Shown: positions 19,685 to 64,000, numbered from the stretch's first letter. The stretch is DNA of 64,000 nucleotides from Botryllus schlosseri (GCA_051294905.1 CM119372.1:35094001-35158000), one strand, 5' to 3'. The notes: generated from the sequence alone by a model not told the origin. Numbers and translations: made by a program.

Positions 19685-19849
19685 CAGTTGAACAAACTAA
19701 TTTTATATAGACATAAAGATTTCCTATATAACCTACAAATTTCTCATTAGTTCGTGTTGTTTTGTGAGTGTAACTGTTTATTTACAAATTGCGCTGCTAC
19801 TATAGACGGTCTTATCGATCATTCCTATCTAATACCGAATACTGTGCAA

Positions 19850-23077: not shown

Positions 23078-23194
23078 TATCCAAAGTTTCTTTGAAATAT
23101 CTCGGTCGACAGGCAGATTTTGTCACGATGAGAAACATTTTCGAACCCTTCCATGATATCAATGACACCAATCCGATGACAAATCCCACAAACG

Positions 23195-23674
23195 ATGGAT
23201 AATATAGGACTAAACTTTTTACTGTGGAATTGTAGAGGATTATATAGGAAGCATCACGAACTAAAACACCTTCTCACGACTCTGGAACGGGCTCCAGATG
23301 CGATAATTCTCCAGGAAACACACCTTATCGAAAAATAGGCCTACTCTCCGAAATTTCCAGGATATCACTGTCACAGAAAGGACAAATCCCCTCATTCCGG
23401 TGGATTGGCGATCTTTGTTAAATCTTCACATAACTCCAGCATCGAAGCAGATGCTACAACCGACATCGAAGTACTTTGTGTGAAGCTTCATGGCCTATCA
23501 TTGTACAATGTGTACATCCCACCCGACTGCCGCTTACGCGACAGTGATGCGAGCATTTTCGAGACGTTACCGCCAAAATCCATTGTCTCTGGCGACTTCA
23601 ATGCACATCATTGGTCGTGGAGTTACAAAACGAACCAACGAGGGACTAAACTTTTTAATGTCATCGATCACGCA
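23195..23674 (+). pseudogene. LINE ORF2, 5' part (APE endonuclease)
   Basis: LLWNCRG, LQET, GGLAIFV, NVYIPP, GDFNAHH motifs; in-frame TAG at 23336; broken at ...VIDHA by the palindromic insertion. Confidence 0.92.
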
Positions 23675-24851
23675 AGTAGTAGTAGAGAAATGGTGGATAT
23701 AGGCGCATATCGTCTTTTAACTTAAAGAAACCAACTTCTCTAATATAATAAAGAAACAAAGGATAACCGACTTACGCATTTTGCAGAATTGCAGTGGGTA
23801 GTTCCCCCCGTGACGGATTGCTGCAGAGATTTGATCAATAATTTCTGTGGCTGAAGGTGTGATGTCGCTACGGCTAGTGATTTTCGGTTCAAATGAGGGT
23901 GATATATGTGTATTTTTGGTATCATTTTCAAGGCTGCTTGCAAAATTACGTCACTCACTATCGGGCGATGAGTGGATTCCTAAATTAGAAGTGGTCCTGC
24001 CTGGCGATTTAAAACTCGGCTGACCTATCACGTCGATCAATGATTTCCGGTTCAATTGAATACGGGTGCCATCTGCGTATAATGAAAAGTCGTTCGTGTT
24101 GAATAAAGTTTTATTATTAAACGAGTTTTCTCAAGGTTATTGTAATCTTTGCTGTAATTTTCCGTGTATGGCGATCGAATCTTTCTGGATCTCTACGGTG
24201 TGTAACCCGACGACACGGAAAAGTTCGCCTGGCGTGACTCGGCGTGTAATGGCGGGTTTGATTGACTGATGATGACAACTTATGCTATGTTTCAAGCGTA
24301 TGGTCAAGGTCACACGAATCGATGTAAAGTCCCGCTTGGTTGAATTGTCGTTCTTCGATGGGGGTGGGGGACAGTTGGTTGTTTTTAAAGGCTACATTCA
24401 AAACTACTACCGTAACCCGCTGTCAGTCAGGCGCAGAGACGCGCGGACGTATAGATTTGGTATTATGAAACCATCCTGCTCCTGTTTATATTTTAAAACT
24501 CAACTGGCGTATGATTTCTCTTGGATCTCTCGATCGATGATATCCGGTTCAATCGAGTGTGACTGCAAGCTATCTGTGTGGTGCATGTGTTATCAAATCA
24601 AACTCGTTTGTGTCATTGAGTCCATGGTATATCACATTGATATGATTTTAAGCATACAGTTTTGAATAATCATATGGCGTTCGATTGCTGCTACTTGCTA
24701 GCCGCCATGTTCAAGCGGTTGTTGACGTCGTCCAAAGCTACTTGCTGCATCTCAGGACAGTAGATGGCGTATGTGCCAGCAGCGAGCCTCGTATACGGTA
24801 CAAACGAACGTCAATTAGCATGGAAAAGCAACGCATTGGAGGATCTTTACC

Positions 24852-25458
24852 GGATTATTTTTGGATTTACGTTTATCCGGACCCGGATTTGTGGATTTTA
24901 CATGCTACTCGCCAAATAATTTCGCTGGCAAATGATGTCCATTGTCCATGAATCAGCCGTGGTCGATCAAGCGTGATGCGATGATGTCAGTCGGAGTTCA
25001 AAATACTCGTTTGTATCAATTACATCAAAGTAGTCATTTTTCTTCTGACTCGTGACTCTTGCAACGATCTGGTTCCTGTATCGAGAACTACGATACTCGA
25101 TTCCATTGTACGCCGACGAATCGGGGCTCGTATACTATACATATACGCGTGAATTCGGATTGGAGTACAGCGTATTGGATGATTTTTACTGGATTACATT
25201 TGGATTTACGCTTATCCGGACCCAGATGTTTTAAATTTTACATGCTACTGGTGGATTAATTGCGCTAGCAAGTGATGGCCATAAATCAGCCGTGATCGAT
25301 CTAGCGTGATACGATGATGTCAGTCGGGGTTTAAAATACTTGTTTGGATTAATTATATCAACGTAGTCATTTTCTTCTGACTCGTGACTCTTCCGTCGAT
25401 GTGGTTCCTGTATTGAGAACTATACGATACTCGATTCCATTGTACGCTGACGTATCGG
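24852..25458. repeat. Diverged tandem duplication (~270-bp block, ~340-bp period) inside the arm; mirrored at 35630-36236
   Basis: tggatttacg-ttatccggaccc...cgatactcgattccattgtacgc-gacg-atcgg at 24852-25124 and 25191-25458. Confidence 0.85.
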
Positions 25459-26541
25459 AAAAGTTCGCCTCGTTTCGTAGGATACTGGTGGAATGGCTTA
25501 ATTTCGCTGAATATGAGTTTGGGAATATTTGGCGTTATATTCGAGTGATAAAAAAAAAACTTATCTCTAGGCAAATAGACGTACTTGCTGATTGATTATA
25601 GCCTGCGACCCAAATTCCCATTGTCTCTGTCCACAATCGCTTGTGAAGTGGTGCAATGAATCGGTGATCCGGCTCCTATTTTTCATATAATCCGTGTAAG
25701 CGACGCCTTCTAGAAGCTCAGAAGTGGGCAGTTTTACAAGTCGGTAGCTAAGGGACACAAATGACGAAAATCATCCTGGTGTAAATGACCGTATTAGTAG
25801 TCTACAAGCCCCATGAATATCACAAACAACGAATCAAACTCTACCCGCCATGCTATCAACTGCAGTGGGACGTATTTTCAATATATTGAGATATGTAAAT
25901 TTCATTCCTAATATTTTCAATCTTGCAAGCGAACCATCTTTTAAGGCGGCAATAATACAAGATTTGTCGTTATCGGCTAACGCTCTCAAGGGCGATTTGG
26001 TGTATGGAAATGTGAATATTGATTACGACGGTGCGATCTTGGACGGTTCGCCGCGGTAAACAATCCTTCATATCAGGAAACAATCATGCGCAGTCTGAAA
26101 ATATAGTCGAACATTCGTACCATGCTACAACACCAAGCACAAAGCGTTATTGGAAACAATTGCGATGAAGCAGCGATCGACATGCATTGTACAAAGACAT
26201 AACAATAGTCACGCACACATACACACTAGAATACTAGTCAGATTATCGGACCACGACCTAACATATCGATCTGGCTTTCCGCCCCATGCCACCTCATTTT
26301 GTCGCTTTCCTTTCATATTCTTTGCTTTAGTTTTCATTCGGTGTGCATTCCTCTTTTCTACTTTACCTATGCCAAGGTGGGTGTCTGATTTCAATGACTA
26401 CTCCAAGCTCCAACTCGTTTCGACACCTTATGTCTTTCATTGTATCGCAGTTTTGTATAGTGTTTTGAAACGATGAAAATATTAATAAACTGACAATGAT
26501 ACACTAAATTCTCCCAAGAACAGCTACAATACAGTAACGGT

Positions 26542-27690
26542 CAGAGGTGGTCAGTAACGAAGTACTTCTACTTTTGGAAGTACTCAAGTAGTTCTGCTCT
26601 ACTTCTGGTACTTACTCAAGTAGATATGATTTTCTCTACTTCTATTTTGACTTCGTAATATTTTGTGATCTACTTACTTACTTTTCGCTATTTTCAGTTT
26701 ATCAAGTAGAAGTAGTTTTATCCCCCAATACGAAAGCTAGCCTGAGGAGTTTCGGGGCTGTTTTCACGGAGCAACAAGATTTAATATTTATAAAAGTCAA
26801 GTAAAGCCCAGAAATTTTGTTGCGCTTCGCGCATAGTAGTGATGAAGTGACAAATATGTTTTGATGAAAGTATCAGTGAATATAATTTAGACACCGGATT
26901 GTTTGGTTCCTATCACACCGCATTGTCGCCCATATCAAATATTTCATCACAGTAAATATGGCCCACCATAACGTTTAAAACTACCGATTCGCAATCTAGC
27001 AATTACCTATGTTAATCTGGAAAATCCAGCTTTTTTGAACGTTACACCTGATTTAGCAGATCACCTTTGAAGTTTTATGGACAAAAGACATGCAATATAT
27101 TTTCCGATTTTAAGAAGTGGTATTTGTATTTCAATGCAAGTATCATACTTTAAGTTCGAATTACTTTTAGTTCTTTTGTCTGCAGAAGATACATGTTGAA
27201 GCATATAAGCAAGTGTAGTAATGCCTCTATTTTCCGAAAATAAAGCTACACTAAATATAACTTTAACGATCCACAATATTTGTTATTACCGTATACTAAT
27301 CACGTAAAAGTGATGAAACCGTATCCGATACAACTTCCACGTGTTGCTGTTCGCCTAAACTTGGGGCCTTATAATATAAGGCAGGGCGCCATGCCATGAT
27401 ATTCTCTAAAAACGGGGTCTTCTAGTAAACAAAGTGTTAGTGTCGCCTTTTCATATCAATACTATAAATTGCATGCCCATGATGCGAAACAATGCTTATT
27501 CTGTCGGGAATTGATACCACCCATGATGCATTAATACGAATCAAGCTCTCTGCCCCTGCCGCATAGCTCGATTCGCAGATTTTGACAGTCCATGCGAACA
27601 GATTAAGACTGTTTTCAAAACTACTTACTTACTTGAGTAGATGTAAAATCAGTCAATTCTACTTCCACTTCAAGTAGTTTTAGGGGATCA
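26542..27690. mobile_element. Host-type non-autonomous DNA element inside the arm (mirrored at 33398-34546)
   Basis: Starts cagaggtggtcagtaacgaagtac; clustered tactt/aagtag subterminal repeats at 26560-26715 and 27620-27680; right terminus not found. Confidence 0.55.
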
Positions 27691-28706
27691 TTTTCGTTGA
27701 GCATTAAAATACGGTCTCTTGCAGAGCGTGACGGTCAAAAAAAAATGTGTGTCTCAAATATTCAGCGGAAGCCGCCGTGCATTATTATACGAGACTCTTA
27801 TATATGGCTTGGAATACAGCACCGATGCCTTGCAATTCAGAGGCTGGTGTATCGAGAGCGTCCATGGCAGTTGATCGAATAACCATATGAGAAGATGGTC
27901 AAATCTGATTGTTTACCTCTCTATTATAAATATTCTATTTCGGAGTGTTTCCTTGTATATTCCCGAAAGCGACGACATAGAGCCGATTATTACTGATCTC
28001 CCGATGTGAGAATGAAACTCGTGAAAAGAAGCTTGTGATCTATAATGGATTACAGAATATTCCGATGTCAACGCTGACGTTCGTGAAAATGGTGCGATTC
28101 GTTATAGTTCTGATCTTGTGTGACTACCCCAAACAGTAGATTCTCGACTATAAAACGTTTGTGTAGCTATAATTCGTATCCAAGTTGTTGAACTAAGACA
28201 TATGACGGTAGAATCGAATGCCATACATAAAAACTTATTCAAATACCCATACTAAGAGTGAGCATTACAACGTTGAGTCACTTGAAAAGTTGTCGTGGTA
28301 GCAGAATATTGTTTATGAATCGATATGGCCAGTAACAGTTGCATTGTTCGCACATTTAATGCTATTTATCGATATCGGATCTCCTTATGAAATATCAGTG
28401 TGATAACCAAGTGCGTGCCAACTGCTCTTTGTCGATGGAAATAAACACCTGTCTCCCATATTGCTGTCTGAAAACAATCTGTTTTCATGCAATACGCATA
28501 TTTGCAAGGCAAGTCCTGCTAATTATGTTGTCCGTTCGTTTTTGTATTGACATTAAGTGTCTTGTATCGCTCCTTTGGCGATGGTAATTTGCTGGAAAAA
28601 GTCAGCACCTAAGATTAAAAATTACCCAGAGAACGAGCTCTGTCTTCGTGACCTTTCAATATTCACCTATGGTTTTGAATTCAGAGCAAATGACATTATT
28701 GTTGCC

Positions 28707-30192
28707 AATATGTGAATTGCTATCGAAGATTCGTAGTAATGGTTTTGTGTGTTTTTAGGATGATATATTTCTCAAATAGTTTCCCAAAATGAGAGACTGT
28801 TATGGAAAAACACCTCGATCCGGATCCGCCAGTACAAGGATGTGTAAATATCGCGTCGGGCTCTCACCGCTCCGAATTATATAGACTCGCAACGTTCGCC
28901 AGGTTTTCGAGATTATCATACCCAAAACGTGCAGATTTAGCATCTGACGGATATTACTGGCTAGGGTTCGAAGACAAAATTAAATGTTTCGGATGCAGTA
29001 TTTCACTCGAAAAATGGGTTGAAAAGGATTCGAATGTAAGTTGTCATGAAGCGAGTTGTGTTCGACACGTATTCAATATTCCCGTTGAAAGATCGAACTT
29101 CAGGAGTCTATTACGGGAGTTTAAGCTCCAAATCGAGACACCGCAAGTCAATAACAGCGACATAAAACTTGCGAATATCATTGACCGAGAACACGCGTGT
29201 TTGATTAAGAACCTCGACTTGAAAAGGGAATCGAAGCGACGCGAAACCTTCAAGAAATGGCCCAGCTATCCAATACCCCACGCAGTAGGCGAGTTGGCGA
29301 AACAAGGGTTTTCCTATCTCGGTAACTTAGACAGAACGCAGTGCTTTAGCTGCTTCGGTGTTCTTCGCAACTGGAAACCCATAGACGACGTATCGGAAAT
29401 ACACCTTACACATTTTCCAAAATGTACTTTCGCGCGTGGTAGCTTTTCAGGAAATATCGCACTAGCTGAGCACGACCGCGGGAATTTGGACGACTTGCTT
29501 CACGAGAAAATACGACGGCTCACTATCAATGTGAAAGAACCAGATGAGCCCTCCGAGGATGAAAAACACTATCTTGCTGAACTATTCCCTTGCCTAAACC
29601 CCGCGAATCCTGTATAGTCGTCCTTGTCACGAAGAATAGCAACCTTCGACGAAGGTTGGGATCCCGCTAAAATCAATGCTAGCGTTGAGCAACTAGCAAA
29701 TGCGGGGTTTTATTACATCGATTCGGACAAGACAAAATCTTTTTACTGCAATGGTGGACTTCGGTGGGACCGGACAGACGAGGTTTGGACGGAACATGCT
29801 AAATGGTTTCCGCAATGCGAGTACGTACTTCGTATGAAAGGTGTCGAATTCGGGCGACGCATCGAAAACACATATCCAAATCTCAATCTTCCGATTATTA
29901 TAAACCCCATCACGAAGTTGGAGTTGACTAAACGCCAAAATGTTCTGCGGAATCGTCAATCAAACGATGGATCACCGTTGAATTGCATCGAAAATGGGAG
30001 AGGCCGTGACGTGTAAACGATGTGAAATAAACATAAATGAATATGACTATAGCATGTGGACATCTTTGCATTGTTTCTAGACTTGTGGGACTGACGTAGA
30101 ACGCAGTGGTGGCAGTCATGAAGTACTTCTATTTTTTCTCAGAATTGTGGTAGGTTTTAATATGTGAATTGCTATCGAAGATTCGTAGTAAT
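28707..30192 (+). repeat. 34-bp perfect direct repeats bracketing the IAP gene (28707-28740 and 30159-30192)
   Basis: aatatgtgaattgctatcgaagattcgtagtaat at both positions; mirrored in the right arm. Confidence 0.95.
28802..30110 (+). pseudogene. Intronless inhibitor-of-apoptosis (IAP/BIRC) gene: BIR1-BIR2 ORF (271 aa), in-frame stop, BIR3, frameshifted RING remnant
   Basis: BIR motifs RLATF..LASDGYY..KCFGC..H...C; RRETF..LAKQGF..QCFSC..H..HFPKC; RIATF..LANAGFYY..SFYC..EHAKWFPQC. ORFs 28802-29617 and 29624-30016 share a frame and are separated by one TAG. TCKRC (30009-30023) and ACGHLC (30052-30069) lie in shifted frames. Confidence 0.92.
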
Positions 30193-30687
30193 AGTTCTGT
30201 AGAATTTTGGTTCAACCTAGAAAAAGTTCTTATGCAGACGTATTATATACCGTTGGAAAGATAATTTTATCAGCTTTTCAATGATGGGTTTTGTCATTTT
30301 TTTACCTTGGGGAAAAAAGTTATGACCAAAAACGTGCCAGGGGATGAAGCACGATTTTGCCTAACATTATAATACAATTATAAGCTAAAATACGATGGAA
30401 ACGATACCTTAATAACAGAATACAACATTATAAATTGGAACATTACTATCAGCAAAGCAAACTAACAATCGGACAGCAAAAAAAAATGAAACATAACTTT
30501 ATTAAGAAGTATTTATCATACGTTTAAGGGGTAAAAGTTGACCGATACGGAGATAATAGGCGAGATTTCATCGAAACAAAGGGTTTTTCTTCTATAAGCA
30601 AGGTCATGGTTAAACCAAGTATAAAGATGTAAAAACGATATCTACAGGTTTTACCTAATTACACTACATACTCAAGTGCCTTGTGTT

Positions 30688-30766
30688 GGACTACTTCTAT
30701 TTCTATCAGTTTTACTACCAGTTAGAATGTCCCGTCTAATCCAACTGATAGAAATAGAAGTAGTCC
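30688..30766. repeat. Hairpin in the spacer: 24-bp perfect stem, 31-nt loop
   Basis: ggactacttctatttctatcagtt (30688-30711) / aactgatagaaatagaagtagtcc (30743-30766). Confidence 0.95.
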
Positions 30767-30774
30767 CCAAGTAG

Positions 30775-33700
30775 TCCCCAAGGTAAAAAAATGACAAAAC
30801 CCATCATTGAAAAGCTGATAAAATTATCTTTCCAACGGTATATAATACGTCTGCATAAGAACTTTTTCTAGGTTGAACCAAAATTCTACAGAACTATTAC
30901 TACGAATCTTCGATAGCAATTCACATATTAAAACCTACCACAATTCTGAGAAAAAATAGAAGTACTTCATGACTGCCACCACTGCGTTCTACGTCAGTCC
31001 CACAAGTCTAGAAACAATGCAAAGATGTCCACATGCTATAGTCATATTCATTTATGTTTATTTCACATCGTTTACACGTCACGGCCTCTCCCATTTTCGA
31101 TGCAATTCAACGGTGATCCATCGTTTGATTGACGATTCCGCAGAACATTTTGGCGTTTAGTCAACTCCAACTTCGTGATGGGGTTTATAATAATCGGAAG
31201 ATTGAGATTTGGATATGTGTTTTCGATGCGTCGCCCGAATTCGACACCTTTCATACGAAGTACGTACTCGCATTGCGGAAACCATTTAGCATGTTCCGTC
31301 CAAACCTCGTCTGTCCGGTCCCACCGAAGTCCACCATTGCAGTAAAAAGATTTTGTCTTGTCCGAATCGATGTAATAAAACCCCGCATTTGCTAGTTGCT
31401 CAACGCTAGCATTGATTTTAGCGGGATCCCAACCTTCGTCGAAGGTTGCTATTCTTCGTGACAAGGACGACTATACAGGATTCGCGGGGTTTAGGCAAGG
31501 GAATAGTTCAGCAAGATAGTGTTTTTCATCCTCGGAGGGCTCATCTGGTTCTTTCACATTGATAGTGAGCCGTCGTATTTTCTCGTGAAGCAAGTCGTCC
31601 AAATTCCCGCGGTCGTGCTCAGCTAGTGCGATATTTCCTGAAAAGCTACCACGCGCGAAAGTACATTTTGGAAAATGTGTAAGGTGTATTTCCGATACGT
31701 CGTCTATGGGTTTCCAGTTGCGAAGAACACCGAAGCAGCTAAAGCACTGCGTTCTGTCTAAGTTACCGAGATAGGAAAACCCTTGTTTCGCCAACTCGCC
31801 TACTGCGTGGGGTATTGGATAGCTGGGCCATTTCTTGAAGGTTTCGCGTCGCTTCGATTCCCTTTTCAAGTCGAGGTTCTTAATCAAACACGCGTGTTCT
31901 CGGTCAATGATATTCGCAAGTTTTATGTCGCTGTTATTGACTTGCGGTGTCTCGATTTGGAGCTTAAACTCCCGTAATAGACTCCTGAAGTTCGATCTTT
32001 CAACGGGAATATTGAATACGTGTCGAACACAACTCGCTTCATGACAACTTACATTCGAATCCTTTTCAACCCATTTTTCGAGTGAAATACTGCATCCGAA
32101 ACATTTAATTTTGTCTTCGAACCCTAGCCAGTAATATCCGTCAGATGCTAAATCTGCACGTTTTGGGTATGATAATCTCGAAAACCTGGCGAACGTTGCG
32201 AGTCTATATAATTCGGAGCGGTGAGAGCCCGACGCGATATTTACACATCCTTGTACTGGCGGATCCGGATCGAGGTGTTTTTCCATAACAGTCTCTCATT
32301 TTGGGAAACTATTTGAGAAATATATCATCCTAAAAACACACAAAACCATTACTACGAATCTTCGATAGCAATTCACATATTGGCAACAATAATGTCATTT
32401 GCTCTGAATTCAAAACCATAGGTGAATATTGAAAGGTCACGAAGACAGAGCTCGTTCTCTGGGTAATTTTTAATCTTAGGTGCTGACTTTTTCCAGCAAA
32501 TTACCATCGCCAAAGGAGCGATACAAGACACTTAATGTCAATACAAAAACGAACGGACAACATAATTAGCAGGACTTGCCTTGCAAATATGCGTATTGCA
32601 TGAAAACAGATTGTTTTCAGACAGCAATATGGGAGACAGGTGTTTATTTCCATCGACAAAGAGCAGTTGGCACGCACTTGGTTATCACACTGATATTTCA
32701 TAAGGAGATCCGATATCGATAAATAGCATTAAATGTGCGAACAATGCAACTGTTACTGGCCATATCGATTCATAAACAATATTCTGCTACCACGACAACT
32801 TTTCAAGTGACTCAACGTTGTAATGCTCACTCTTAGTATGGGTATTTGAATAAGTTTTTATGTATGGCATTCGATTCTACCGTCATATGTCTTAGTTCAA
32901 CAACTTGGATACGAATTATAGCTACACAAACGTTTTATAGTCGAGAATCTACTGTTTGGGGTAGTCACACAAGATCAGAACTATAACGAATCGCACCATT
33001 TTCACGAACGTCAGCGTTGACATCGGAATATTCTGTAATCCATTATAGATCACAAGCTTCTTTTCACGAGTTTCATTCTCACATCGGGAGATCAGTAATA
33101 ATCGGCTCTATGTCGTCGCTTTCGGGAATATACAAGGAAACACTCCGAAATAGAATATTTATAATAGAGAGGTAAACAATCAGATTTGACCATCTTCTCA
33201 TATGGTTATTCGATCAACTGCCATGGACGCTCTCGATACACCAGCCTCTGAATTGCAAGGCATCGGTGCTGTATTCCAAGCCATATATAAGATTCTCGTA
33301 TAATAATGCACGGCGGTTTCCGCTGAATATTTGAGACACACATTTTTTTTTGACCGTCACGCTCTGCAAGAGACCGTATTTTAATGCTCAACGAAAATGA
33401 TCCCCTAAAACTACTTGAAGTGGAAGTAGAATTGACTGATTTTACATCTACTCAAGTAAGTAAGTAGTTTTGAAAACAGTCTTAATCTGTTCGCATGGAC
33501 TGTCAAAATCTGCGAATCGAGCTATGCGGCAGGGGCAGAGAGCTTGATTCGTATTAATGCATCATGGGTGGTATCAATTCCCGACAGAATAAGCATTGTT
33601 TCGCATCATGGGCATGCAATTTATAGTATTGATATGAAAAGGCGACACTAACACTTTGTTTACTAGAAGACCCCGTTTTTAGAGAATATCATGGCATGGC

Positions 33701-36700
33701 GCCCTGCCTTATATTATAAGGCCCCAAGTTTAGGCGAACAGCAACACGTGGAAGTTGTATCGGATACGGTTTCATCACTTTTACGTGATTAGTATACGGT
33801 AATAACAAATATTGTGGATCGTTAAAGTTATATTTAGTGTAGCTTTATTTTCGGAAAATAGAGGCATTACTACACTTGCTTATATGCTTCAACATGTATC
33901 TTCTGCAGACAAAAGAACTAAAAGTAATTCGAACTTAAAGTATGATACTTGCATTGAAATACAAATACCACTTCTTAAAATCGGAAAATATATTGCATGT
34001 CTTTTGTCCATAAAACTTCAAAGGTGATCTGCTAAATCAGGTGTAACGTTCAAAAAAGCTGGATTTTCCAGATTAACATAGGTAATTGCTAGATTGCGAA
34101 TCGGTAGTTTTAAACGTTATGGTGGGCCATATTTACTGTGATGAAATATTTGATATGGGCGACAATGCGGTGTGATAGGAACCAAACAATCCGGTGTCTA
34201 AATTATATTCACTGATACTTTCATCAAAACATATTTGTCACTTCATCACTACTATGCGCGAAGCGCAACAAAATTTCTGGGCTTTACTTGACTTTTATAA
34301 ATATTAAATCTTGTTGCTCCGTGAAAACAGCCCCGAAACTCCTCAGGCTAGCTTTCGTATTGGGGGATAAAACTACTTCTACTTGATAAACTGAAAATAG
34401 CGAAAAGTAAGTAAGTAGATCACAAAATATTACGAAGTCAAAATAGAAGTAGAGAAAATCATATCTACTTGAGTAAGTACCAGAAGTAGAGCAGAACTAC
34501 TTGAGTACTTCCAAAAGTAGAAGTACTTCGTTACTGACCACCTCTGACCGTTACTGTATTGTAGCTGTTCTTGGGAGAATTTAGTGTATCATTGTCAGTT
34601 TATTAATATTTTCATCGTTTCAAAACACTATACAAAACTGCGATACAATGAAAGACATAAGGTGTCGAAACGAGTTGGAGCTTGGAGTAGTCATTGAAAT
34701 CAGACACCCACCTTGGCATAGGTAAAGTAGAAAAGAGGAATGCACACCGAATGAAAACTAAAGCAAAGAATATGAAAGGAAAGCGACAAAATGAGGTGGC
34801 ATGGGGCGGAAAGCCAGATCGATATGTTAGGTCGTGGTCCGATACTCTGACTAGTATTCTAGTGTGTATGTGTGCGTGACTATTGTTATGTCTTTGTACA
34901 ATGCATGTCGATCGCTGCTTCATCGCAATTGTTTCCAATAACGCTTTGTGCTTGGTGTTGTAGCATGGTACGAATGTTCGACTATATTTTCAGACTGCGC
35001 ATGATTGTTTCCTGATATGAAGGATTGTTTACCGCGGCGAACCGTCCAAGATCGCACCGTCGTAATCAATATTCACATTTCCATACACCAAATCGCCCTT
35101 GAGAGCGTTAGCCGATAACGACAAATCTTGTATTATTGCCGCCTTAAAAGATGGTTCGCTTGCAAGATTGAAAATATTAGGAATGAAATTTACATATCTC
35201 AATATATTGAAAATACGTCCTACTGCAGTTGATAGCATGGCGGGTAGAGTTTGATTCGTTGTTTGTGATATTCATGGGGCTTGTAGACTACTAATACGGT
35301 CATTTACACCAGGATGATTTTCGTCATTTGTGTCCCTTAGCTACCGACTTGTAGCACTTCCCACTTCTGAGCTTCTAGAAGGCGTCGCTTTTACGGATTA
35401 TATGAAAAATAGGAGCCGGATCACCGATTCATTGCACCACTTCACAAGCGATTGTGGACAGAGACAATGGGAATTTGGGTCGCAGGCTATAATCAATCAG
35501 CAAGTACGTCTATTTGCCTAGAGATAAGTTTTTTTTTTATCACTCGAATATAACGCCAAATATTCCCAAACTCATATTCAGCGAAATTAAGCCATTCCAC
35601 CAGTATCCTACGAAACGAGGCGAACTTTTCCGATACGTCAGCGTACAATGGAATCGAGTATCGTATAGTTCTCAATACAGGAACCACATCGACGGAAGAG
35701 TCACGAGTCAGAAGAAAATGACTACGTTGATATAATTAATCCAAACAAGTATTTTAAACCCCGACTGACATCATCGTATCACGCTAGATCGATCACGGCT
35801 GATTTATGGCCATCACTTGCTAGCGCAATTAATCCACCAGTAGCATGTAAAATTTAAAACATCTGGGTCCGGATAAGCGTAAATCCAAATGTAATCCAGT
35901 AAAAATCATCCAATACGCTGTACTCCAATCCGAATTCACGCGTATATGTATAGTATACGAGCCCCGATTCGTCGGCGTACAATGGAATCGAGTATCGTAG
36001 TTCTCGATACAGGAACCAGATCGTTGCAAGAGTCACGAGTAAGAAGAAAAATGACTACTTTGATGTAATTGATACAAACGAGTATTTTGAACTCCGACTG
36101 ACATCATCGCATCACGCTTGATCGACCACGGCTGATTCATGGACAATGGACATCATTTGCCAGCGAAATTATTTGGCGAGTAGCATGTAAAATCCACAAA
36201 TCCGGGTCCGGATAAACGTAAATCCAAAAATAATCCGGTAAAGATCCTCCAATGCGTTGCTTTTCCATGCAAATTGACGTTCGTTTGTACCGTATACGAG
36301 GCTCGCTGCTGGCACATACGCCATCTACTGTCCTGAGCTGCGGCAAGTAGCTTTGGACGACGTCAACAACCGCTTGAACATGGCGGCTAGCAAGTAGCAG
36401 CAATCGAACGCCATATGATTATTCAAAACTGTATGCTTACAATCATATCAATGTGATATACCATGGACTCAATGACACAAACGAGTTTGATTTGATAACA
36501 CATGCACCACACAGATAGCTTGCAGTCACACTCGATTGAACCGGAAATCATCGATCGAGAGATCCAAGAGAAATCATACGCCAGTTGAGTTTTAAAATAT
36601 AAACAGGAGCAGGATGGTTTCATAATACCAAATCTATACGTCCGCGCGTCTCTGCGCCTGACTGACAGCGGGTTACGGTAGTAGTTTTGAATGTAGCCTT

Positions 36701-37410
36701 TAAAAACAACCAACTGTCCCCCACCCCCATCCAAGAACGACAATTCAACCAAGCGGGACTTTACATCGATTCGTGTGACCTTGACCATACGCTTGAAACA
36801 TAGCATAAGTTGTCATCATCAGTCAATCAAACCCGCCATTACACGCCGAGTCACGCCAGGCGAACTTTTCCGTGTCGTCGGGTTACACACCGTGGAGATC
36901 CAGAAAGATTCGATCGTCATACACGGAAAATTACAGCAAAGATTACAATAACCTTGAGAAAACTCGTTTAATATTAAAACTTTATTCAACACGAACGACT
37001 TTTCATTATACGCAGATGGCACCCGTATTCAATTGAACCGGAAATCATTGATCGACGTGATAGGTCAGCCGAGTTTTAAATCGCCAGGCAGGACCACTTC
37101 TAATTTAGGAATCCACTCATCGCCCGATAGTGAGTGACGTAATTTTGCAAGCAGCCTTGAAAATGATACCAAAAATACACATATATCACCCTCATTTGAA
37201 CCGAAAATCACTAGCCGTAGCGACATCACACCTTCAGCCACAGAAATTATTGATCAAATCTCTGCAGCAATCCGTCACGGGGGGAACTACCCACTGCAAT
37301 TCTGCAAAATGCGTAAGTCGGTTATCCTTTGTTTCTTTATTATATTAGAGAAGTTGGTTTCTTTAAGTTAAAAGACGATATGCGCCTATATCCACCATTT
37401 CTCTACTACT
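30775..37410 (-). repeat. Right inverted arm (6,636 bp)
   Basis: Reverse complement of the left arm; scattered substitutions, no net indel. Confidence 0.97.
30978..32286 (-). pseudogene. Mirror copy of the IAP gene in the right arm
   Basis: ORFs 31471-32286 and 31072-31464 translate identically to the left copy, including the same internal stop. Confidence 0.92.
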
Positions 37411-40400: not shown

Positions 40401-40667
40401 TTTCGATTGCGCTCAGGCCATTGTGGACTGAACGCACACTTGTTTAAGATTGGAATCGTGCCTTCACCACATTGTAGCTCCTGCAATGAACCTGAGACGG
40501 TTGAGCACTTTATAATGAACTGCCCCTCGCATGAATTTCATAGAACGTTCCTGCGTCGTGCTTGTGTTTGTATAAATATTCCATTTCGCCTCTTCAACTT
40601 ATTAACGACTCCAAACATTTTGAAATATGTGGTAGAATATGGGCTGAGTTGTAATAGATATATTTGA
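37411..40667 (+). pseudogene. LINE ORF2, 3' part (end of APE, reverse transcriptase, RNase H, C-terminal CCHC)
   Basis: Resumes HANLVMLN...LDLTL...GSDH; YRPISL, QGSVISPILF, FADD, KYLGV; RNase H STDG / AEL / SDS / WIPAHVDIKGNETAD; RLRSGH...CSSC...ETVEHFIMNC; several frameshifts and stops. Confidence 0.93.
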
Positions 40668-52623: not shown

Positions 52624-53425
52624 AACGTCACTACGAACATATGGGGACAATTATTCAGTCACCGTGCGAATAGGTTTTGGCATGTCTTTGAAATTGCTAT
52701 TTGCCCTTCCATTTGAGTAGACATTTAGACTGTTGCTTCAACGTCATCCTGAGTATTAAGGCTGACTAATTTGATAACCTCTGCTCTCACGCAATATGTT
52801 GTAGCGGGTGATGGAACGCCGCAAGTATCAAATACTGATGAGCGCATTGAATTCCACCGGTAAACTTCGTTTGTGCTCACTTGGTTTTCGTGGTGACTCT
52901 ACCCGGAGTGTTGAGTAAGAGAGGTAATGCAACCTGTCAACTGATATGAAATTACGTTTGACTAATGCTAATCTTGGTAAAAAAAAATATATGAACTGTT
53001 AGCCAAAGACGTAACTCACTTGTAACGAAGGCTTGCCAGAAACCATTTAACACTGAGGTAATATAAGATGCGGATGACATTCATTTGCACTTACTTAGTA
53101 CGCCGTGAGTTTATTCCCACTCAATTAGGCAGCGATGTCACGCAATTCTAATCCGGCAATATGTCGTATATATATATATATATATATCAGTACAAGTCCG
53201 TAAATAATATCAGTTGCTTAGCACTACTTTGAAATGTGAATGCTGAGGAAGCGTTTTGAATCATTGTTATTTTGTTTAATGAGAAAATATCCAAGATTTT
53301 ATACATAATCATATCTTTGGGCCGTGAGATAGAGAAGCGGGCGAAAAACTCTTTGGTAAATGGCATGATTTAAGAAATCAGACACCTACCGAGGCATAAG
53401 GGATGTAAAGAAGAGGCATGTACAC

Positions 53426-53885
53426 TAGGGCTGTTCAAAAATAAACTTGTTTTCAGATTTCCCTGGCTACTTGATAAAATTGCTAGGTTGCTGAAAACAA
53501 CGCTACACACCAACTCTGGCTGGCTCAATTCCAACCAGTAGAGCGATTTTCTTGCAGTAGAAAGTTTTGAATTTATCATTTAAAAACAAGAAATATTTTT
53601 TCTGTCAACCCCATAAAATTGTTGGGCTGTCAGTAGAGATGATGCACGCGAAATTTGGAACAATTCCAATCACTAGAAGCGAAGGTATTGCAGTAGAAAA
53701 ATTTCCAATTCCATGATTTTAAAATGAGTACTTGAATACTATTTCACTCAAATCCCAGTTTTGATACTGCAATAAATTCACTTCTACTGGTTGGAGTTGA
53801 GCCAAAATTGGTTTGCAGCGTTGTTTTCACCAACCTAACAATTTTATCAAGTAGCCAGTGAAATCTGAAGAAAAATGTTTTTTTT
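53426..53885. mobile_element. Older, partial foldback MITE of the TAGGGCTGTTCAAAAA family
   Basis: Starts tagggctgttcaaaaataa; inverted match cagattt-cctggctacttgataaaattg / caattttatcaagtagccagtgaaatctg; right terminus lost. Confidence 0.75.
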
Positions 53886-54668
53886 TTTATACTTGGAAAT
53901 GGATTATTAGATTACTAAATACTTGATACTTAGGAATGGATTGTGGAGTCAACCTCGGTCGGACAGAACCCGTAACTCATTGGTGTTGCAGCGGTGCATC
54001 GTACCATGACGCTAATCACCACTCATGGTATCCGAAGTGCGATAGGGTACCCCGAGGTTGAAAAGGTTGAGAACCACTGATCCACATTCAAACAATTGAT
54101 TAGACGTAAAATAAATGAAACAGAAACTGGGTCTAAAAACAATTTACTTGGCACTACGTACAACGCACAGTGAGTTGATGAAACACTCTCCAAACAACAT
54201 CGCCCCATACAACTCAGACAAAATGAGAATTTGGGAAGTTGAAAAGAAACAGTCACAACAAGTGCTTATAATGAACAGTGGCTAAAAACTTTTACACTCT
54301 AGCATGCTCTTGTTGAAATGTTTGTTCAGTCATCTGTCGTCGTGAGTTCGCGTTCGTGTTCTCAACAATTGCTTTCGCAATCACGTACACGCATAAACGT
54401 GAACCTTCCTAGGTTTGGCACACACTTTCCCGTAAAATATTCCATTATTATGATATTTTGGATATTCTTTGAACAAATTAGAATATTTATTAATCATATG
54501 CGACTTACTTGACGAACTCAAATTTGAAAATGCCTTTAATTTTGGAATTCTTAAAGTGGCAGTACAGGATGTAGTTACGTTTCATTTGGATGCAATTAAT
54601 GCGCCACAACGTAATGATTGCATCGTCAAGGTAACTAATAATACTAGAGACGTATAGTTATAATACCA

Positions 54669-56233: not shown

Positions 56234-57734
56234 GTATGTGGTGGGTCGCGAAAGTGTGAATGAAGCAAGTCCTTACATGGCGTCTGGTCTGGTGTGAGAT
56301 TAATGGAAATTAATATAGCCGCTAGATTCATGCTAATTATATTTTTGGAAAATACCGTGTTCCCGAATAGTAATGTCTATAATTCTTTACGAGGAGTCAT
56401 GTAACAAAGGCGTCTGAACAAAGTCAACATATGCAGATTTATTTATCACTTCTAAGTCATTTTGTGCATCTTGACTGAGTTTTCTTGACGTTTATTGAAA
56501 TCGCTTCCATACTACTGGGCTATTTTCTCGGAATATTCAGCTATTGCCTAACAACTTGTAGCTGCATGCATGCAATCCAATGCACAGCTATCCAGAAAGG
56601 AGTTGTGTTTGGCTTACCACATTCAGAATAACTCATTTGGAATTTTTAATATGACAAGATGAAATCCTCTTGACAAAAGTTCGTATATACTTTACGGAGG
56701 TGTCACATTTATTCTTAGCCAGGTTCGTTTGATAGTGGAAAGTTTTTTTTCCGCATTGAAAACGCGATATCTTCATGATTATATGAGCAAAATTTCTTCA
56801 CAGTTATGCTGTAACAAATATAGTAACAGTTCAGCAAATGGTCAGATTAAACGCTGGTACATCCCGTCAAATTTGCAGCATTGACCGGTCATAACCGGTG
56901 GAAGGTGATGCTGATATCAATATATTATGTTTCAAATATATTTGCCTGCAGTCTTCAAAATCTTGGTAAAGCATTGCAGATGAGTAATTATAGGTAATCG
57001 CCACATTTAAACACAAAAAACGCGATCAGTTCGTACGACAACCACTCAACAAAACCATGATCAATGTTCAGTATTAATGGAACATCTAACTCTTACTATG
57101 ATGAGATCTCAGATTAGGATTGTAAGAATGGTTGCATTTAAAACAAAAATTCATTTAGAACATACATGTTTAAAACAAGGCCCTTGTTTAAAACATTTTT
57201 TCGTTGTTTTTTAAGCCATTTCACGACTATTCAACTGTTTTAAACAACGATTGGTATTAAATGAAATTCTAGTTGTAATTGTGTAAACAAAATTCGCCGT
57301 GGGCATTTGCATCTGAATGCCATTGTATTCGTACCGAAGTTATAAGATTTTAACATGCGGTGCTACTGTACCTCATTAATTTCTGCGCTATCGCGTTCAC
57401 GCGTCACCGCTCCCTAACGATTTGAGAAACTTCCGACACGCATTTAATCACTGTTGAATATTATCGACGCGATTAAGCTGTCACCCCAGTGAAAGAATTT
57501 CCGATGCTTCTCAGCTGTTGATGTGAAGGAAATGTATATAGTGGGCAGCTGATATTATTCAGAGCAAAAGCAAGAGATTACGAAGCGATGACAAGTTAAG
57601 ATGAGATTATCGTAAGATTACATTTTTATCTGTCAAGACACACACCATGTACAATGAAATGTGTCGCACCAGTAAACAGAAGACTCTTGTTTCGCTGGCT
57701 TTTACTAACTTAAATCTCGGCGTCAAATACAACA

Positions 57735-57867
57735 GTAACAGTAACAGTAACAGTAGCGATTTAAGTAACGGAGGAATTGGAAACTAATGATTAGAAAAGC
57801 AATGATTACATGATGCACGATGGCTTGAATACAAAAGACTATACGAATCACCACAATCTCCCCCACC
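57735..57867 (-). mobile_element. Polypurine tract and start of the 3' LTR
   Basis: Minus strand GGTGGGGGAGAT (57867-57856) is followed directly by TGTGGTG (LTR start at 57855), ~40 bp after the integrase stop; the distal LTR boundary is not resolved. Confidence 0.7.
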
Positions 57868-57909
57868 AAATAAAATTGAATACAAAATTGGCACATTAGC
57901 ACATCAAAA

Positions 57910-58755
57910 TCACTTTACGCGGTCGCCGTACCATTCCGGACACTTTCTAACCCTATTAGATCGGCGCGGAATTGGCGTATGCGACGAATTGCCCTTCAAT
58001 AACGAAGTCTCATTCTCGGGCTCTTTATCATCCAACGCCTCGGCACGATCATTCGGTGTCGGAATGATTTCAGTCCTGGAACCGGCTCTCGCTTCCGGTT
58101 TCTCCACATCGATGGTGGTAGGGTTCGGAGCCAAGTCTCTCACAGACACGGTGGACTCTCTTCCATCTTCGTAGCGTATTAACGCGTACTTAGGATTCAC
58201 ATCAAGCAGCTCGACCGGGTCGCAAAGCGGTTCAGACTTCGAAGATCGATGGAAACGTCGTAACAGTACAGAGTCGGCGAAAAGTAACCAATCAGGAATC
58301 GAGGGTCCAATCATCGAGCGTCTAGGAAAACCAAAAAATCGTTCATGTGGTGTTACGTTTGTAGCTGTACAAAGCAGCGATCGCACGCTATGTAGCGCAT
58401 CATTCAACACCATTTCCCACGCAGATTCCGGCAGCCGCTCCGTAGCAAGAATCAATTTGATGGTTCTCCAAATCGTTTGGTTGACGCGATCACACTGAGA
58501 ATTACCCGTAGGATGATACGGAGTAGACCTGCTAGTAGCGACAGCACGTTTGGTTACAAACGTAATCAAATCTCTGGAGATAAAAGAGTTTCCTCTATCG
58601 CTATGGATATATTCGGGAACTCCTACGAGCGAAAACAGCGTCTTCAAATTGCGCATCACGGTTGGAGTAGACATATCACGACACGGAAAAACAAAAGGAA
58701 ATCGACTGTATTCATTCACAACAATCAATAAAAACCTGTTTCTCCCAGACACGGG
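57910..58755 (-). pseudogene. LTR-retrotransposon (Gypsy-like) integrase, core and C-terminus, 5'-truncated
   Basis: LLIVVNEYSRF, GVPEYIHSDRG, STPYHPTGNSQCDRVNQTI, TPHERFFG, RRSNR..K.P; integrase is at the 3' end of pol; the frame is cut at 58755/58756. Confidence 0.92.
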
Positions 58756-58792
58756 AGTAGTATAGTCGCTCGCTCGCATGACGCAATGGGGC

Positions 58793-59070
58793 TCTTATGG
58801 GCGGGGTGGTGACGCGCCTGAAAATCGGGGGTGGTGATGCGCCTTTTTAGACCCCCCTTGCGGCGGTGATGCGCCATGTGTTCTTATGGGTGCGGTCGTG
58901 ATTCGCCTTTTCGGCTATAGGCTGCGGCGGTGACGCGCCAGAAAACCCGGGGTGGTGACTCGCCTTTTTTGCTATAGGTGGTGGCGGTGAGTCGTATTTC
59001 ATGTATTCTTACGGGTTCTGTGGTGATTCACCGTGTGTTCTTATGGGCGGGGTCGTGATTCGCACTTTCG
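58793..59070. repeat. GC-rich degenerate array: 9 copies of GGTGA(c/t)(g/t)CGCC-like motif, 121-bp higher-order period
   Basis: Copies start at 58808, 58833, 58865, 58897, 58929, 58954, 58986, 59022, 59054. Confidence 0.9.
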
Positions 59071-59560
59071 GCCATCTCTCGCGTGGTGTTGAATATGTAC
59101 GAGTCACCAACAATAACCACACAAACGGAAACGTGGCTTGTTGTGAGGATTAAGCAGTGCGACCTATATTTCGAATGACCTGCGCGCTGAATTGTTGCCC
59201 GTGCAGCTGTTTTGTGCTACTATCGTATCGATTATTACACTAATCCAGTCAGTGCGAAATAGTTTGCTAAATCTAGGAATCACTTCCAAGGTAATATTTT
59301 GGTAATTAGTTTACCGCAGAGCCGGCGTAGTCGGCGATTCGAATATCAACAATAACCGCGTTCACAAACTAACACTTCAAAAATGTGTGAAATAGTTTGC
59401 AAAACCCCGCGATCTCTGACAAGATAATGACTCGGGTGACATGATAACGTTACAGGTATAGGCTGAGGTGGTGATTCGCCATGTGTTCTTATGGGTGCGC
59501 TCGCACGTCGTACTTTCAAGTATAGGTATCTCTCGCATGTCGTATTGGAAACTCGTGTTG

Positions 59561-60094
59561 GCTCGCTCACGCGGTGAAATTTTAGTAATCAGTTTGTCGC
59601 AGAACTTGATTTCACTCATAAGATTTAATAAGTAACGAATAACAGACCGCCAGTGTCGGTAACTTGAATAGCGACAAATCGTCACTTATTTCCGCTCTAA
59701 GCCTAATCCTTTGTGAAGTGAACGCTTATTCAAAAGGTTGTGATATAATTTTAAAATCCAACGACCACTCACCGGATAATGCTGCAGACATGGCACTCTC
59801 TCATGCTCGCTCACGCGGTGAAATTTTAGTAATCAGTTTGTCGCAGAACTTGATTTCACTCGTAAGATTTAATAAGTAACGAATAACAGACCGCCAGTGT
59901 CGGTAACTTGAATAGCGACAAATTGTCACTTATTTCCGCTCTAACCCTAATCCTTTGTGAAGTGAACGCTTATTCAAAAGGTTGTGATATAATTTTAAAA
60001 TCCAACGACCACTCACCGGATAATGCTGCAGACATAGCACTCTCTCATACCCGCTCACAAGGTAATATTTCGGTAATTAGTTTGTCACAGAACC
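59561..60094. repeat. 244-bp tandem duplication plus a partial third unit
   Basis: Units start at 59561, 59805 and 60049; near-identical ORFs 59664 and 59908 in the track. Confidence 0.93.
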
Positions 60095-63000
60095 GTCGCA
60101 GACGGTGATTCAAAACCAACAATTTGTCACTTGCCCGCGATCGCTATATGTTTTGACACTTCAGAAGAGTGGTTGACTTTAGTTGCGTGATACAAATCAT
60201 GAGAATATTCAATCAATGCGTCAATTTGTCAACTCGAAATGAAACTCACTACACAGTTCAAGTTGATTCGTATCTGAATGTGTTAATTCGGTACAATTCT
60301 AATTATTTTGAGAAATCTTTTCGTGATCTGTTGATTCGACTGCAACCTGAATATTACTGACACCGACTTTCAGCCACATCGAATTATTCGCACACTCCGC
60401 GCCGTCGTTTTCATAGCTATAGAATCAATACCAACTATAACTCTACAAGAATCAAGAATCGCAAGTATGTGCATTATACAGTTATTGTCTTTATCAACAT
60501 GAAATCAAACTCTTAACAAAAACACGCAACTAATCATTCGCCATCTCTAACATTATCAAAAAAATTCCAGTATTGTTGATTGAAAATCCTCGAGTCTTTA
60601 TTTTTAAGAATGTTATAGTACGACGTCGGAATCCACTCGCGAGATGTACTAAAGGTAAATCCAGATAATCCAAAATGAAATATTTGGACTTTGACATAGT
60701 CTGAATTGAAATAGATTGACAAACATGACTAACAACTTTCAACCCAGTCATATTTAGAGATTATACGCACATTGATTCGAAACAAGTAATGAAACATTAC
60801 AACTCTATTCGCGACCTGTCTTTACGTTTGTCAAAGAGAGTTTCAGAAATATCATCACTATGACATCTCAACATTTTAACATCTTGCCATCAACAAAAGA
60901 GTAAAATACAAAAACCTTGTCAAGTCAATCCGTTTGTAACTCACCGAACCAAAGCAAAAAGTGTCCATACGAAAAGTAGACAAGACTACGCAAGTAATCA
61001 CTACAACCCACAAACATATCAAGTTCGGTTTTAGGCATATACCACCAACTCGTCTTTTTTGTTTAACTGTAAAAGTCGTTACTATGCCACAAGACAAAGA
61101 AATTACTATGAGGTATATTTTGTAAGACAAAAGTAATTACTTCTCGGTGTCGGCGACTTGAGGTTAACATAATATATTTGAGTATACGACATTTGAAAGT
61201 ATGACCATCGTAGTTTCTTACAATCGAACGCAGGTGTTATATCGAAAATTATCATGATGTAAACATAAGGATTGACACATTGATTAGACAAAATTTCAAA
61301 CGCAAACTAATAATAGTTGATCATTATTTTATTATTAAATTATTTGCGTTAATTAGACCACGCGTTGTGGTAAATGTTATGACAGCAACAAACTTTTCAG
61401 TACCAATGTTATTAACATATTAAGCTGCAAAACTATGTGTGTCTGAAATGTTCTCGATAGGAAAATTACTCCACCTTGGTAAAAATCACTCTGCGTATCG
61501 CGGATATCAGAAAATATTTCCAGTAACCAAGACTAAAGTTGAAACAACAATATCGGTATTATTACATTCAACACCCGATGCAAAATGCTTTATTGGTCTA
61601 ATTCACAACGGGTAATTGAAACGACTAAGTGTAGAGTATATCACAATGACACGGCGTTACTATTGAATCCAACAATTGATACGATTTATTGTCGAGATTT
61701 GTGACAGCGCATTGAAACATACACAACTTACAGAGTGTGAAAATATCACTTTGGGTATCGAGTACCGTTTGAAGCGCGCGATCAATACATAATTCCGTTC
61801 GCACTCTCTAAGATGTTGTGAAGTCTACAGATTTACACTTCAAGACTTTGATCAACACAGAAGCAATTTGGAATATCTTTACTGGACGCATCCTATTCTA
61901 CTAGACTTGAGTGATACACAAAACTCATAGCATTAACAAAATCGCAATAGGCGCTACACTGAAATCTAAAAAAATGTGTTTGTATTGCTCAAAGTAGTGA
62001 TCATAAATTATCATTTGAATAAGTAATTGTAATCATAAAACCAAACTTGCGAAAGTCATTACCATAACAAAAGAATATTGTAGGTTGCTTGCTAAATGTA
62101 TGCCGGAAATATTTGTAGAACGCTCACGACCAAAGAAATCGGAAATCTCCCTATTGTCATTCGTCAAAGTATATGTTGGCACAATACTCATCCCGTAAAA
62201 GATCCTACTTGTATCTGATTGAATCGCCGGTAATTAACTCGCTAAATCAAACCATAAGGAAATTTCACTCACTCATCGGATATGAAACAGCGTCGCTTAA
62301 TCGGCGTAGATCGTTTTTCTAAATGCAAATCATACCTGACCAACAGAAAACAATTTTCACTCACCTTGTAATGAAACCAAGTGGTGGACCTTCGTTCAAT
62401 ATTTTGTTTGTGTCAAATACTTTGCAATAAACACACTGGAGTGGTCGAGCTTTACATCAGCAGACTGCAATCTGTAAATCAAGCTTACATCCGACTTGTA
62501 ACTGTATCGTTTACCTAACCAAGTTGTATGCACAGTTTGATATTTTTTGTTATTTGGTAATTGCTGAATATACTACTTCGAAATACTCCCTTGAACGTAA
62601 TTTCCATCATCGTAATAATCGAAGTACATTTGTGTCGAATTCGTAACAGCCGACTATGACATGATAAATTTTTGACAAGTTATGCTTGGAAGATTGGTTG
62701 TATATCACGAAAAATAATTACCGCTCATATTGATACTGTTATCCATTGTTCGGTATTTTCAAACGAGTAAAATTTATTACTTGAGTTACTCCGCTTAATG
62801 CAAATGTAAACACAACCGTCTTTCAACATCACAAAGACATCGATACAAAGTATACAATCAAACGCAGCAAGTTTTACTTTTGTAGGTTGTGTATGATTAT
62901 CCTGCATAACTCATTTCTTACCAAAGCCATATGAAATATATTCATGTTACACGAAAATATTCCCATGCTACAAACCTATACAATGATTGGTGGTGCTTTC

Positions 63001-64000
63001 AAAATGTTTCGATACCTCAAGAACTTTATTGTCTCAATGGATGTTCATACATCTTAATAATCAAATAGTTCAACACAGAACTAATACGAACAGAAACATC
63101 AGAGTTGTTTACACAAAAGTTTGTATGTGTACAGTATGTGAATACCATGTGTAAGTCCAGCCCAATTGTGGTATCCATCCGGGTTTAGTTAACACAATTT
63201 ACAACACCGAGGTCGCGTCATCTTTCGTAAGACAACAAACCAAGGCTTCAGGATATGTCCATGTCATAGCAATAAATCAGCTACTCCAACAACAGAGTGC
63301 ATATGTTTCTAGTTACGGTGCTTACATCTTACACACAAATCGACCTACTTTGCTAACGAAAAGTGCTGAGTCATCAACCGATTGCCCTAGCAACAAAACA
63401 GCTAAACGTACTATCATACAAAATGGCCGTTATAGTCACCAACGGTACATGGTACAAGTAACAAGTCTCGAGAATTCAGTTATTCAAAAAACGCGAAAGT
63501 GTTTCTATGCCAAGTCGTTATGTTTGACGAAAGCGTATATTGTAGTATTATGATCGATTTGCATTCGTTGGTCACAAAATGTCACTACTCTAAATAATTA
63601 TTTTTCACTCAAACACAAACGCGTACTTGTCACCAATCGTTTTCATCAAGCACGAGTTCAAGAAACCTGCTACGACATGAATTCCGATTTAGTTTTACAA
63701 ATATTTTATAATTGTTTTTATTAACACTATATCAATGTCATCAAGTTGAGTGTTTACGATATTAGTGTGTAGGTGTCTGTGTCATACTTGGAGGATCCGT
63801 ATTACAATTGACTCGAATTGACTAAATGTAAGAAGGGTTGAAATGTTTCGAATCGATTCATAAGTGGTCTTCGTTGTGGTTTTCGTCGGACATACAGCAC
63901 GAACTAACTGTAGACTCCTCTCTGTTGTGCAGCTACTCGGTAATCGAAATGCATTAACATGTAAACAACGATCTTGTTTTCGTCACACCAAAAATATGTT

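What the first reader, a model, noticed from the sequence alone, without database searches (positions are those of the whole stretch)
58750..60110. A second AGTAGT-ended element cuts a Gypsy integrase gene
SEEN: the integrase frame reads ...TT|PVSGRNRFLL, where TT is simply the reverse complement of AGTAGT. Typical integrase residues upstream (a DxxG-type motif) are missing, so the breakpoint is cacggg|AGTAGT at 58755/58756. About 1.3 kb of nested repeats follows, not obviously similar to the first element's end. INFERENCE: this is the left TIR of a second, different Maverick-like element, with predicted TSD CACGGG.
Basis: partly seen in the sequence, partly recalled or inferred. Interest (0 to 1): 0.7.

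Follow-up and report, generated by a model that had tools for sequence, protein, structure and literature searches.

The report
Maverick-type element end splitting a retrotransposon
A very abundant, apparently gene-less mobile element that starts with the end letters of virus-like Maverick transposons has cut a retrotransposon's integrase gene; only one end of it is visible here, so it looks like an ordinary nested insertion that probably belongs to this animal's unusual mirror-image Maverick hitch-hikers.

Summary
A minus-strand Gypsy integrase breaks at 58755|58756: 114 of 120 relatives carry a DFKG motif that is missing here, and two contigs of other Gypsy copies stop matching at 58755 and run on unlike the window. 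AGTAGT starts on the next base (chance about 3e-4).

The insert is not 1.3 kb. All 21 bins from 58759 to the window end lie at 180-4,200 times unique-flank depth in 4 of 4 runs, with no step at 60110. No gene was found in 5.2 kb. It shares only 7 terminal bases with the first element.

Best reading (0.7): left end of a high-copy, helper-dependent Maverick-ended element, probably (0.5) one arm of a giant palindromic one like 23675-37410. The far end and the target duplication lie outside the window, and no genome was held, so they are untested. Against this reading: the first three bases are under-covered in the read tables, and sequence look-ups tied it to no earlier-noted family. Interest is modest.

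The parts
57662..57855 (-). 3' LTR of the Gypsy copy (TG...CA), with a polypurine tract at about 57856-57868
   Evidence: Sequence; several contigs stop matching at 57662-57664 (table 8)
57910..58755 (-). C-terminal 281 codons of a Gypsy-type pol (integrase core lacking its first motif, plus tail), cut at 58755
   Evidence: Pfam rve E 6e-11 from profile position 13; 738 relatives at E<=0.001, best 120 listed, top 58% identity; 65 relatives longer than 1150 aa have a median of 927 residues upstream of the break
58750..58755 (+). Candidate left copy of a 6-bp target-site duplication (CACGGG); second copy not seen
   Evidence: Sequence only; ACTACT followed by CACGGG does not occur in the window
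58756..58761 (+). (AGT)2 end motif, first bases of the inserted element
   Evidence: Coincides with the break fixed by relatives and by contigs; chance about 3e-4
58793..59100 (+). Subterminal array of about ten 25-36-bp units built on a GTGGTGA-like core; no special fold
   Evidence: single-strand DNA folding z = -0.91, 19 of 100 shuffles fold as well
59287..60132 (+). Second repeat tier, including 2.2 tandem copies of a 244-bp unit (59561-60093, 95%)
58756..64000 (+). Visible part of the high-copy element; open at the window end; no recognisable gene
   Evidence: Depth 180-4,200 times unique flank in all 21 bins, 4 of 4 runs; Pfam, PHROGs, Rfam and protein searches uninformative
23675..37410 (.). 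Context: the first AGTAGT-ended element, 6,636-bp inverted arms (99.7%), 461-bp spacer, CACGCA on both sides, BIR domains in the arm, inserted in a LINE

Best explanation
58756 is the true left end of a high-copy, gene-poor element with Maverick/Polinton-type ends. It integrated into the pol gene of a Gypsy retrotransposon between the G and P codons of the integrase DFKG-P motif and so disabled that copy. Shown: the exact break, the end motif, the subterminal repeats, the very high copy number over at least 5.2 kb, and no recognisable gene. Inferred: a mirror end beyond the window, a 6-bp duplication, and mobilisation in trans by the protein-primed polymerase and retrovirus-like integrase of an autonomous Maverick that recognise the terminal and subterminal repeats. 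Most likely (about 0.5 overall) the visible part is one arm of a 13-18-kb palindromic element built like 23675-37410 but of another sequence family.
For: Break fixed by 114 of 120 relatives and by 2 contigs from 2 runs. AGTAGT exactly there, P about 3e-4. (AGT)2//(ACT)2 with 6-bp duplications is the commonest vertebrate Maverick end (PMC8097293 passages). Depth jumps 49- to 197-fold at the break; median 669-1,761 times unique flank (order of magnitude only, as the tool warns that summed contig depth is no copy number). One 200-nt contig with 2 differences has depth 214 against about 2.3 for unique DNA. The same window holds a complete AGTAGT-ended palindromic element with a 6-bp duplication. 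Depth is flat across 60110, which fits one long unit.
Against: Far end and duplication not seen. The first three bases hold only 2-11 depth in run X5 against 556 at 58825, and at most 20,652 against 53,626 in X3. No loose-end row at 58756 was among the 24 shown (3,239 not shown). A family-wide end at this base is therefore not shown; clipping of branching ends in assembly graphs could explain it (my recall, untested). No inverted self-match in 58756-64000 better than E 0.98, so no palindrome centre is seen. Sequence look-ups in earlier notes found 0 look-alikes in 3 of 3 tries. No helper with matching ends was shown.
Confidence: 0.7

Rival explanations
1. End of an autonomous or decayed full Maverick with an ordinary terminal repeat, followed by an accessory region, with the core genes beyond the window.
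For: End motif. Two + strand frames of 60111-64000 are stop-poor (58 and 60 stops against 80-86 of 1,296 codons; a 240-codon window as open as the best one in 11 of 300 controls), a weak hint of decayed coding. Most vertebrate Mavericks are degraded (PMC8097293 passage).
Against: No core gene in 5.2 kb. Vertebrate terminal repeats are 46-1,447 bp, and no two-fold depth step follows the repeat block: 1728 vs 1747, 1281 vs 1066, 1846 vs 1761, 698 vs 651. The longest open frame (132 codons) is matched by 29 of 300 controls.
Confidence: 0.13
2. The junction is a deletion or rearrangement joint, or the far side was lost, so no clean mirror end and duplication exist.
For: Low depth on the first three bases. 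The upstream Gypsy part is not in the window. Many internal joints among family contigs (table 5).
Against: AGTAGT at a random joint has P about 3e-4. High depth starts within about 70 bases of the break (58825, table 3). Terminal motif plus subterminal repeats is the usual layout of an element end (own knowledge).
Confidence: 0.11
3. Not Maverick-related: the short-repeat 3' tail of a minus-strand LINE or SINE, a Helitron, or another inverted-repeat transposon.
For: Only six terminal bases carry the Maverick signature; some LINEs end in short-repeat tails (recalled).
Against: No reverse transcriptase, Rep/helicase or transposase in six frames. Depth does not fall away from the end as 5'-truncated LINEs would give; the end bin is not the deepest bin in any of 4 runs. 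Ginger ends are TGTNR with 4-bp duplications (PMC2836005 passages). No Rfam match.
Confidence: 0.06

Closest known systems
Maverick/Polinton elements (vertebrate set, PMC8097293; passages seen)
   Same: 5'-(AGT)2 end motif; predicted 6-bp target duplication; most copies degraded
   Different: Intact ones are 12.7-24.6 kb with 46-1,447-bp terminal repeats and 7-8 core genes. Here at least 5.2 kb from the end shows no gene, at far higher depth. Mirror end and duplication not seen.
First element of this window (23675-37410), a palindromic AGTAGT-ended element with BIR cargo
   Same: AGTAGT start, insertion into a retroelement coding region, gene-poor outer arm, flanking hexamer starting CACG
   Different: No sequence similarity beyond 7 bases. 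No 25-36-bp subterminal array in its arm. No BIR in the visible part here.
Non-autonomous inverted-repeat and foldback elements in general (PMC6431247 passages; Tetris, PMC4079207, search listing only)
   Same: Cis-acting ends, internal tandem repeats, mobilised in trans
   Different: Those depend on cut-and-paste transposases (own knowledge); the end motif here points to a Maverick helper.
Compact single-ORF Ty3/Gypsy retrotransposons (host of the insertion)
   Same: Protease, RT, RNase H and integrase domains with integrase at the C-terminal end, about 1,200 aa in relatives; short LTR with polypurine tract
   Different: This copy is cut in its integrase; the depth ratio of 6-12 suggests a small family.

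Membership tests
Maverick/Polinton | 5'-(AGT)2 or (AG)3 end motif | tested here: met
   AGTAGT at the independently fixed break; motif from PMC8097293
Maverick/Polinton | Matching inverted terminal repeat at the other end | not testable with these tools
   Not in the window; no genome held
Maverick/Polinton | 6-bp target-site duplication | not testable with these tools
   Only the left hexamer is visible; met for the neighbouring first element
Maverick/Polinton | Core genes (protein-primed polymerase B, integrase, ATPase, protease, capsids) | tested here: inconclusive
   None in the visible 5.2 kb: Pfam 0 of 6 frames, PHROGs 1 of 12 frames at E 0.014, unknown function, phmmer of one frame gave 2 hits that are other copies of the repeat. 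The rest of the element is outside the window.
Maverick/Polinton | All family copies end at the same base with different flanks | tested here: inconclusive
   Terminal three bases under-covered; no loose end at 58756 among the rows shown
Palindromic gene-poor Maverick-ended elements (like 23675-37410) | Arms of 6 kb or more around a short spacer | not testable with these tools
   The window ends 5.2 kb in; no centre seen; flat depth is compatible
Palindromic gene-poor Maverick-ended elements (like 23675-37410) | High copy number without core genes | tested here: met
   For the visible 5.2 kb only
Non-LTR retroelement 3' end | Reverse transcriptase next to the tail; depth falling away from the 3' end | tested here: not met
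Ginger DNA transposons | TGTNR ends, 4-bp duplication | tested here: not met
   The end reads AGTAG; definition from PMC2836005 passages
Ty3/Gypsy LTR retrotransposon (interrupted host element) | Integrase at the C-terminal end of pol, polypurine tract, TG...CA LTR | tested here: met

The most novel reading that the evidence does not exclude
This is the left arm of a giant, wholly palindromic, gene-less satellite of a Maverick/polintovirus, from a family unrelated in sequence to the BIR-carrying one 21 kb upstream. Several independent Maverick lineages in one animal genome would then each have thrown off snap-back satellites that far outnumber their helpers, with the subterminal repeat array as the lineage-specific site read by the helper's polymerase or integrase.
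Probability: 0.5. Interest if true: 0.55.

Novelty: new member of a known kind. Interest (0 to 1): 0.3.

Why it matters
On its own, one mobile element inside another is routine. The value is as a second data point. It shows that two unrelated, gene-poor families with the same Maverick end motif sit within 21 kb, and it gives a sharp prediction (mirror end, CACGGG, resumed Gypsy pol) because the target site is a conserved coding sequence. If the far side proves palindromic, it adds an independent lineage to a form of Maverick satellite that I did not find described in seven literature searches, and that bears on how these never-isolated animal viruses copy their ends. The complete copies noted elsewhere in this genome are better specimens than this cut-off one.

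Tried and rejected
Own genome: none held.

An 18-base terminal pattern gave 0 matches in viral contigs and 3 in metagenome contigs. All 3 were dropped as chance: 68-70% GC, 19-base match only. A 22-base interior pattern gave 0 in viral contigs.

The longest interior frame (132 aa): no usable Atlas hit; 5 pattern matches in viral contigs, none confirmed; 67 candidates, none at E<=1. A phmmer search of one + strand frame gave 2 hits, P0122 and P0123. Both are unnamed gene calls on contigs of 553-929 bases, in clusters of 1 and 2, with no Pfam match above cut-off; P0123 matches two frames of the window. I read them as further copies of the repeat, not as a protein family. Only 1 of the 2 stop-poor frames was searched this way. 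Rfam: 0. Hairpin at the end: not supported.

Earlier notes near the place: 0; by sequence: 0 in 3 of 3 look-ups, with no positive control run.

My recollection that a tunicate genome paper reports large inverted repeat families was wrong: 0 occurrences of 'inverted' or 'palindrom' in PMC3699833; PMC12448946 mentions only large-scale palindromic gene blocks and has 0 occurrences of Maverick or Polinton.

Only 4 of the 24 runs listed were laid.

Full report
Observation. The hexamer AGTAGT lies at 58756-58761 behind CACGGG. The minus-strand frame 57910-58794 reads ...SDYTT|PVSGRNRFLL, the two T codons being the reverse complement of the hexamer. Pfam rve matches only from profile position 13. A protein search returned 738 relatives and listed the best 120. 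DFKG occurs in 114 of these 120, and 26 of 120 have the short-loop form that aligns directly with PVSG, so the break falls between the G and P codons. The 65 relatives longer than 1,150 aa that carry the motif have a median of 927 residues upstream of it, and none of that is elsewhere in the window. Downstream of the frame are a polypurine tract and a 194-bp TG...CA LTR at 57662-57855.

Independent check of the break. No genome was held, so I laid 4 of 24 listed runs on 56500-64000 at 85% likeness. All were assembled contigs; they differ from the window at flank positions, so they are probably other individuals or haplotypes. Two contigs, one in X3 and one in X5, match the integrase to exactly 58755 and then continue unlike the window, for 9 and 285 letters. 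I read the orientation of those rows from other rows of the same table. With the break fixed this way, the chance of AGTAGT on the next base is about 3e-4.

Extent of the insert. Depth rises 49- to 197-fold at the break and stays high in all 21 bins to the window end: median 669-1,761 times the unique flank, range 183-4,176, against 6-12 times for the Gypsy. Summed contig depth is no copy number, so I take this as hundreds to low thousands of copies or arms, order of magnitude only. One clean datum: a 200-nt contig with 2 differences has depth 214 where unique DNA has about 2.3. The repeat block 58793-60132 is real, but the depth does not change behind it.

A result against. The bin just left of the insert includes its first three bases, and it leaves room for only 2-11 depth on them in X5 (556 at 58825) and at most 20,652 in X3 (53,626 at 58825). 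No loose-end row at 58756 was among the 24 shown, with 3,239 not shown. The reads thus show high-copy sequence starting within about 70 bases of the break, not that the whole family ends on this base. Removal of branching ends in assembly graphs, or a subfamily-specific tip, could each explain it; neither was tested.

Interior. With stops read as X, 0 of 6 frames matched Pfam, and 1 of 12 half-length frames matched a PHROG of unknown function at E 0.014. The longest open frame, 132 codons, is reached by 29 of 300 controls and found nothing in three searches. A phmmer search of one frame against 1.84 billion proteins gave 2 hits, both unnamed calls on contigs under 1 kb that look like further copies of the repeat. 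Two + strand frames are stop-poor (58 and 60 against 80-86 stops; 11 of 300 controls as open), a weak hint of decayed coding. Rfam gave nothing, and the end does not fold better than shuffles.

Relation to the first element. The window holds a complete element at 23675-37410: 6,636-bp inverted arms at 99.7%, a 461-bp spacer, AGTAGT ends, CACGCA on both sides, BIR domains in the arm, inserted in a LINE. The second end shares 7 terminal bases with it and nothing else, so it is another family.

Mechanism. Shown: break, end motif, subterminal repeats, high copy number, no recognisable gene. Inferred from established Maverick biology (polymerase B and retrovirus-like integrase, PMC6431247 passages; end motif and 6-bp duplication, PMC8097293 passages): the element was copied and integrated in trans by an autonomous Maverick that recognises its ends, and it landed in the Gypsy pol gene, separating the first integrase motif from the rest. 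I give this 0.7. Rivals are a full or decayed Maverick (0.13), a rearrangement joint (0.11) and a non-Maverick end (0.06).

Earlier notes. Unchecked notes on this genome describe many 13-18-kb gene-poor palindromic elements with Maverick ends, said to number in the hundreds. They moved my reading from a decayed Maverick towards one arm of such an element. They are leads only. Three look-ups by sequence found no look-alike (no positive control), so this end is not tied to any of those families. The in-window first element is my only tested example of the form. The host is probably a marine invertebrate, perhaps a tunicate.

Literature. I saw passages only of PMC8097293, bioRxiv 10.1101/2025.02.07.637071 (about 2-kb gene-bearing terminal repeats in butterfly polintons), PMC8502044 (IAP homologues in adintoviruses), PMC12448946, PMC3699833, PMC2836005 and PMC6431247; other papers as search listings only. 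Seven searches showed no description of gene-less palindromic Maverick-ended elements. The library lacks most subscription journals and repeat databases, and I opened no supplements; repeat libraries in those supplements could hold this family.

Verdict. Observation confirmed, interpretation partly supported. It works like the end of a non-autonomous Maverick; membership is not established because the mirror end and the duplication could not be tested. As a cut-off nested insertion it scores 0.3. The palindromic-satellite reading has probability 0.5 and would deserve 0.55.

Noticed in passing
window 23669-23674, 37411-37416 and 58750-58755: The first element's duplication (CACGCA) and the second's candidate (CACGGG) both begin CACG; two cases only, possibly a target preference.
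   Followed up: no
window 23675-37410: Complete 13.7-kb palindromic AGTAGT-ended element with BIR domains in its arms; the left end has three AGT units, the right end two; it splits the endonuclease region of an RNase H-bearing LINE at about 21830-40431.
   Followed up: partly
window 19435-19683, 19847-20471, 20880-21491, 10929-11264: Short self-inverted repeats of 250-630 bp (74-92% arm identity), MITE-like; related pieces at 49572-49688 and 53416-53886.
   Followed up: no
window 57002-57252: One bin of very high depth inside otherwise unique flank, with 172 loose ends at 57201 in X1: a short high-copy repeat.
   Followed up: no
window 57657-57661: Flank of the Gypsy 3' LTR; its last 4-5 bases should recur beyond the missing 5' LTR if the Gypsy insertion is otherwise whole.
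   Followed up: no
window 57910-58755: The Gypsy copy differs from all 115 anchored relatives at one otherwise invariant column shortly after the break.
   Followed up: no
window 60111-64000: Two + strand frames are poorer in stop codons than the other four (58 and 60 against 80-86), a weak hint of decayed coding.
   Followed up: partly
L001-L003: Three high-GC metagenome contigs share a conserved non-coding stretch just before a start codon; it matches the element's first 19 bases by chance.
   Followed up: no
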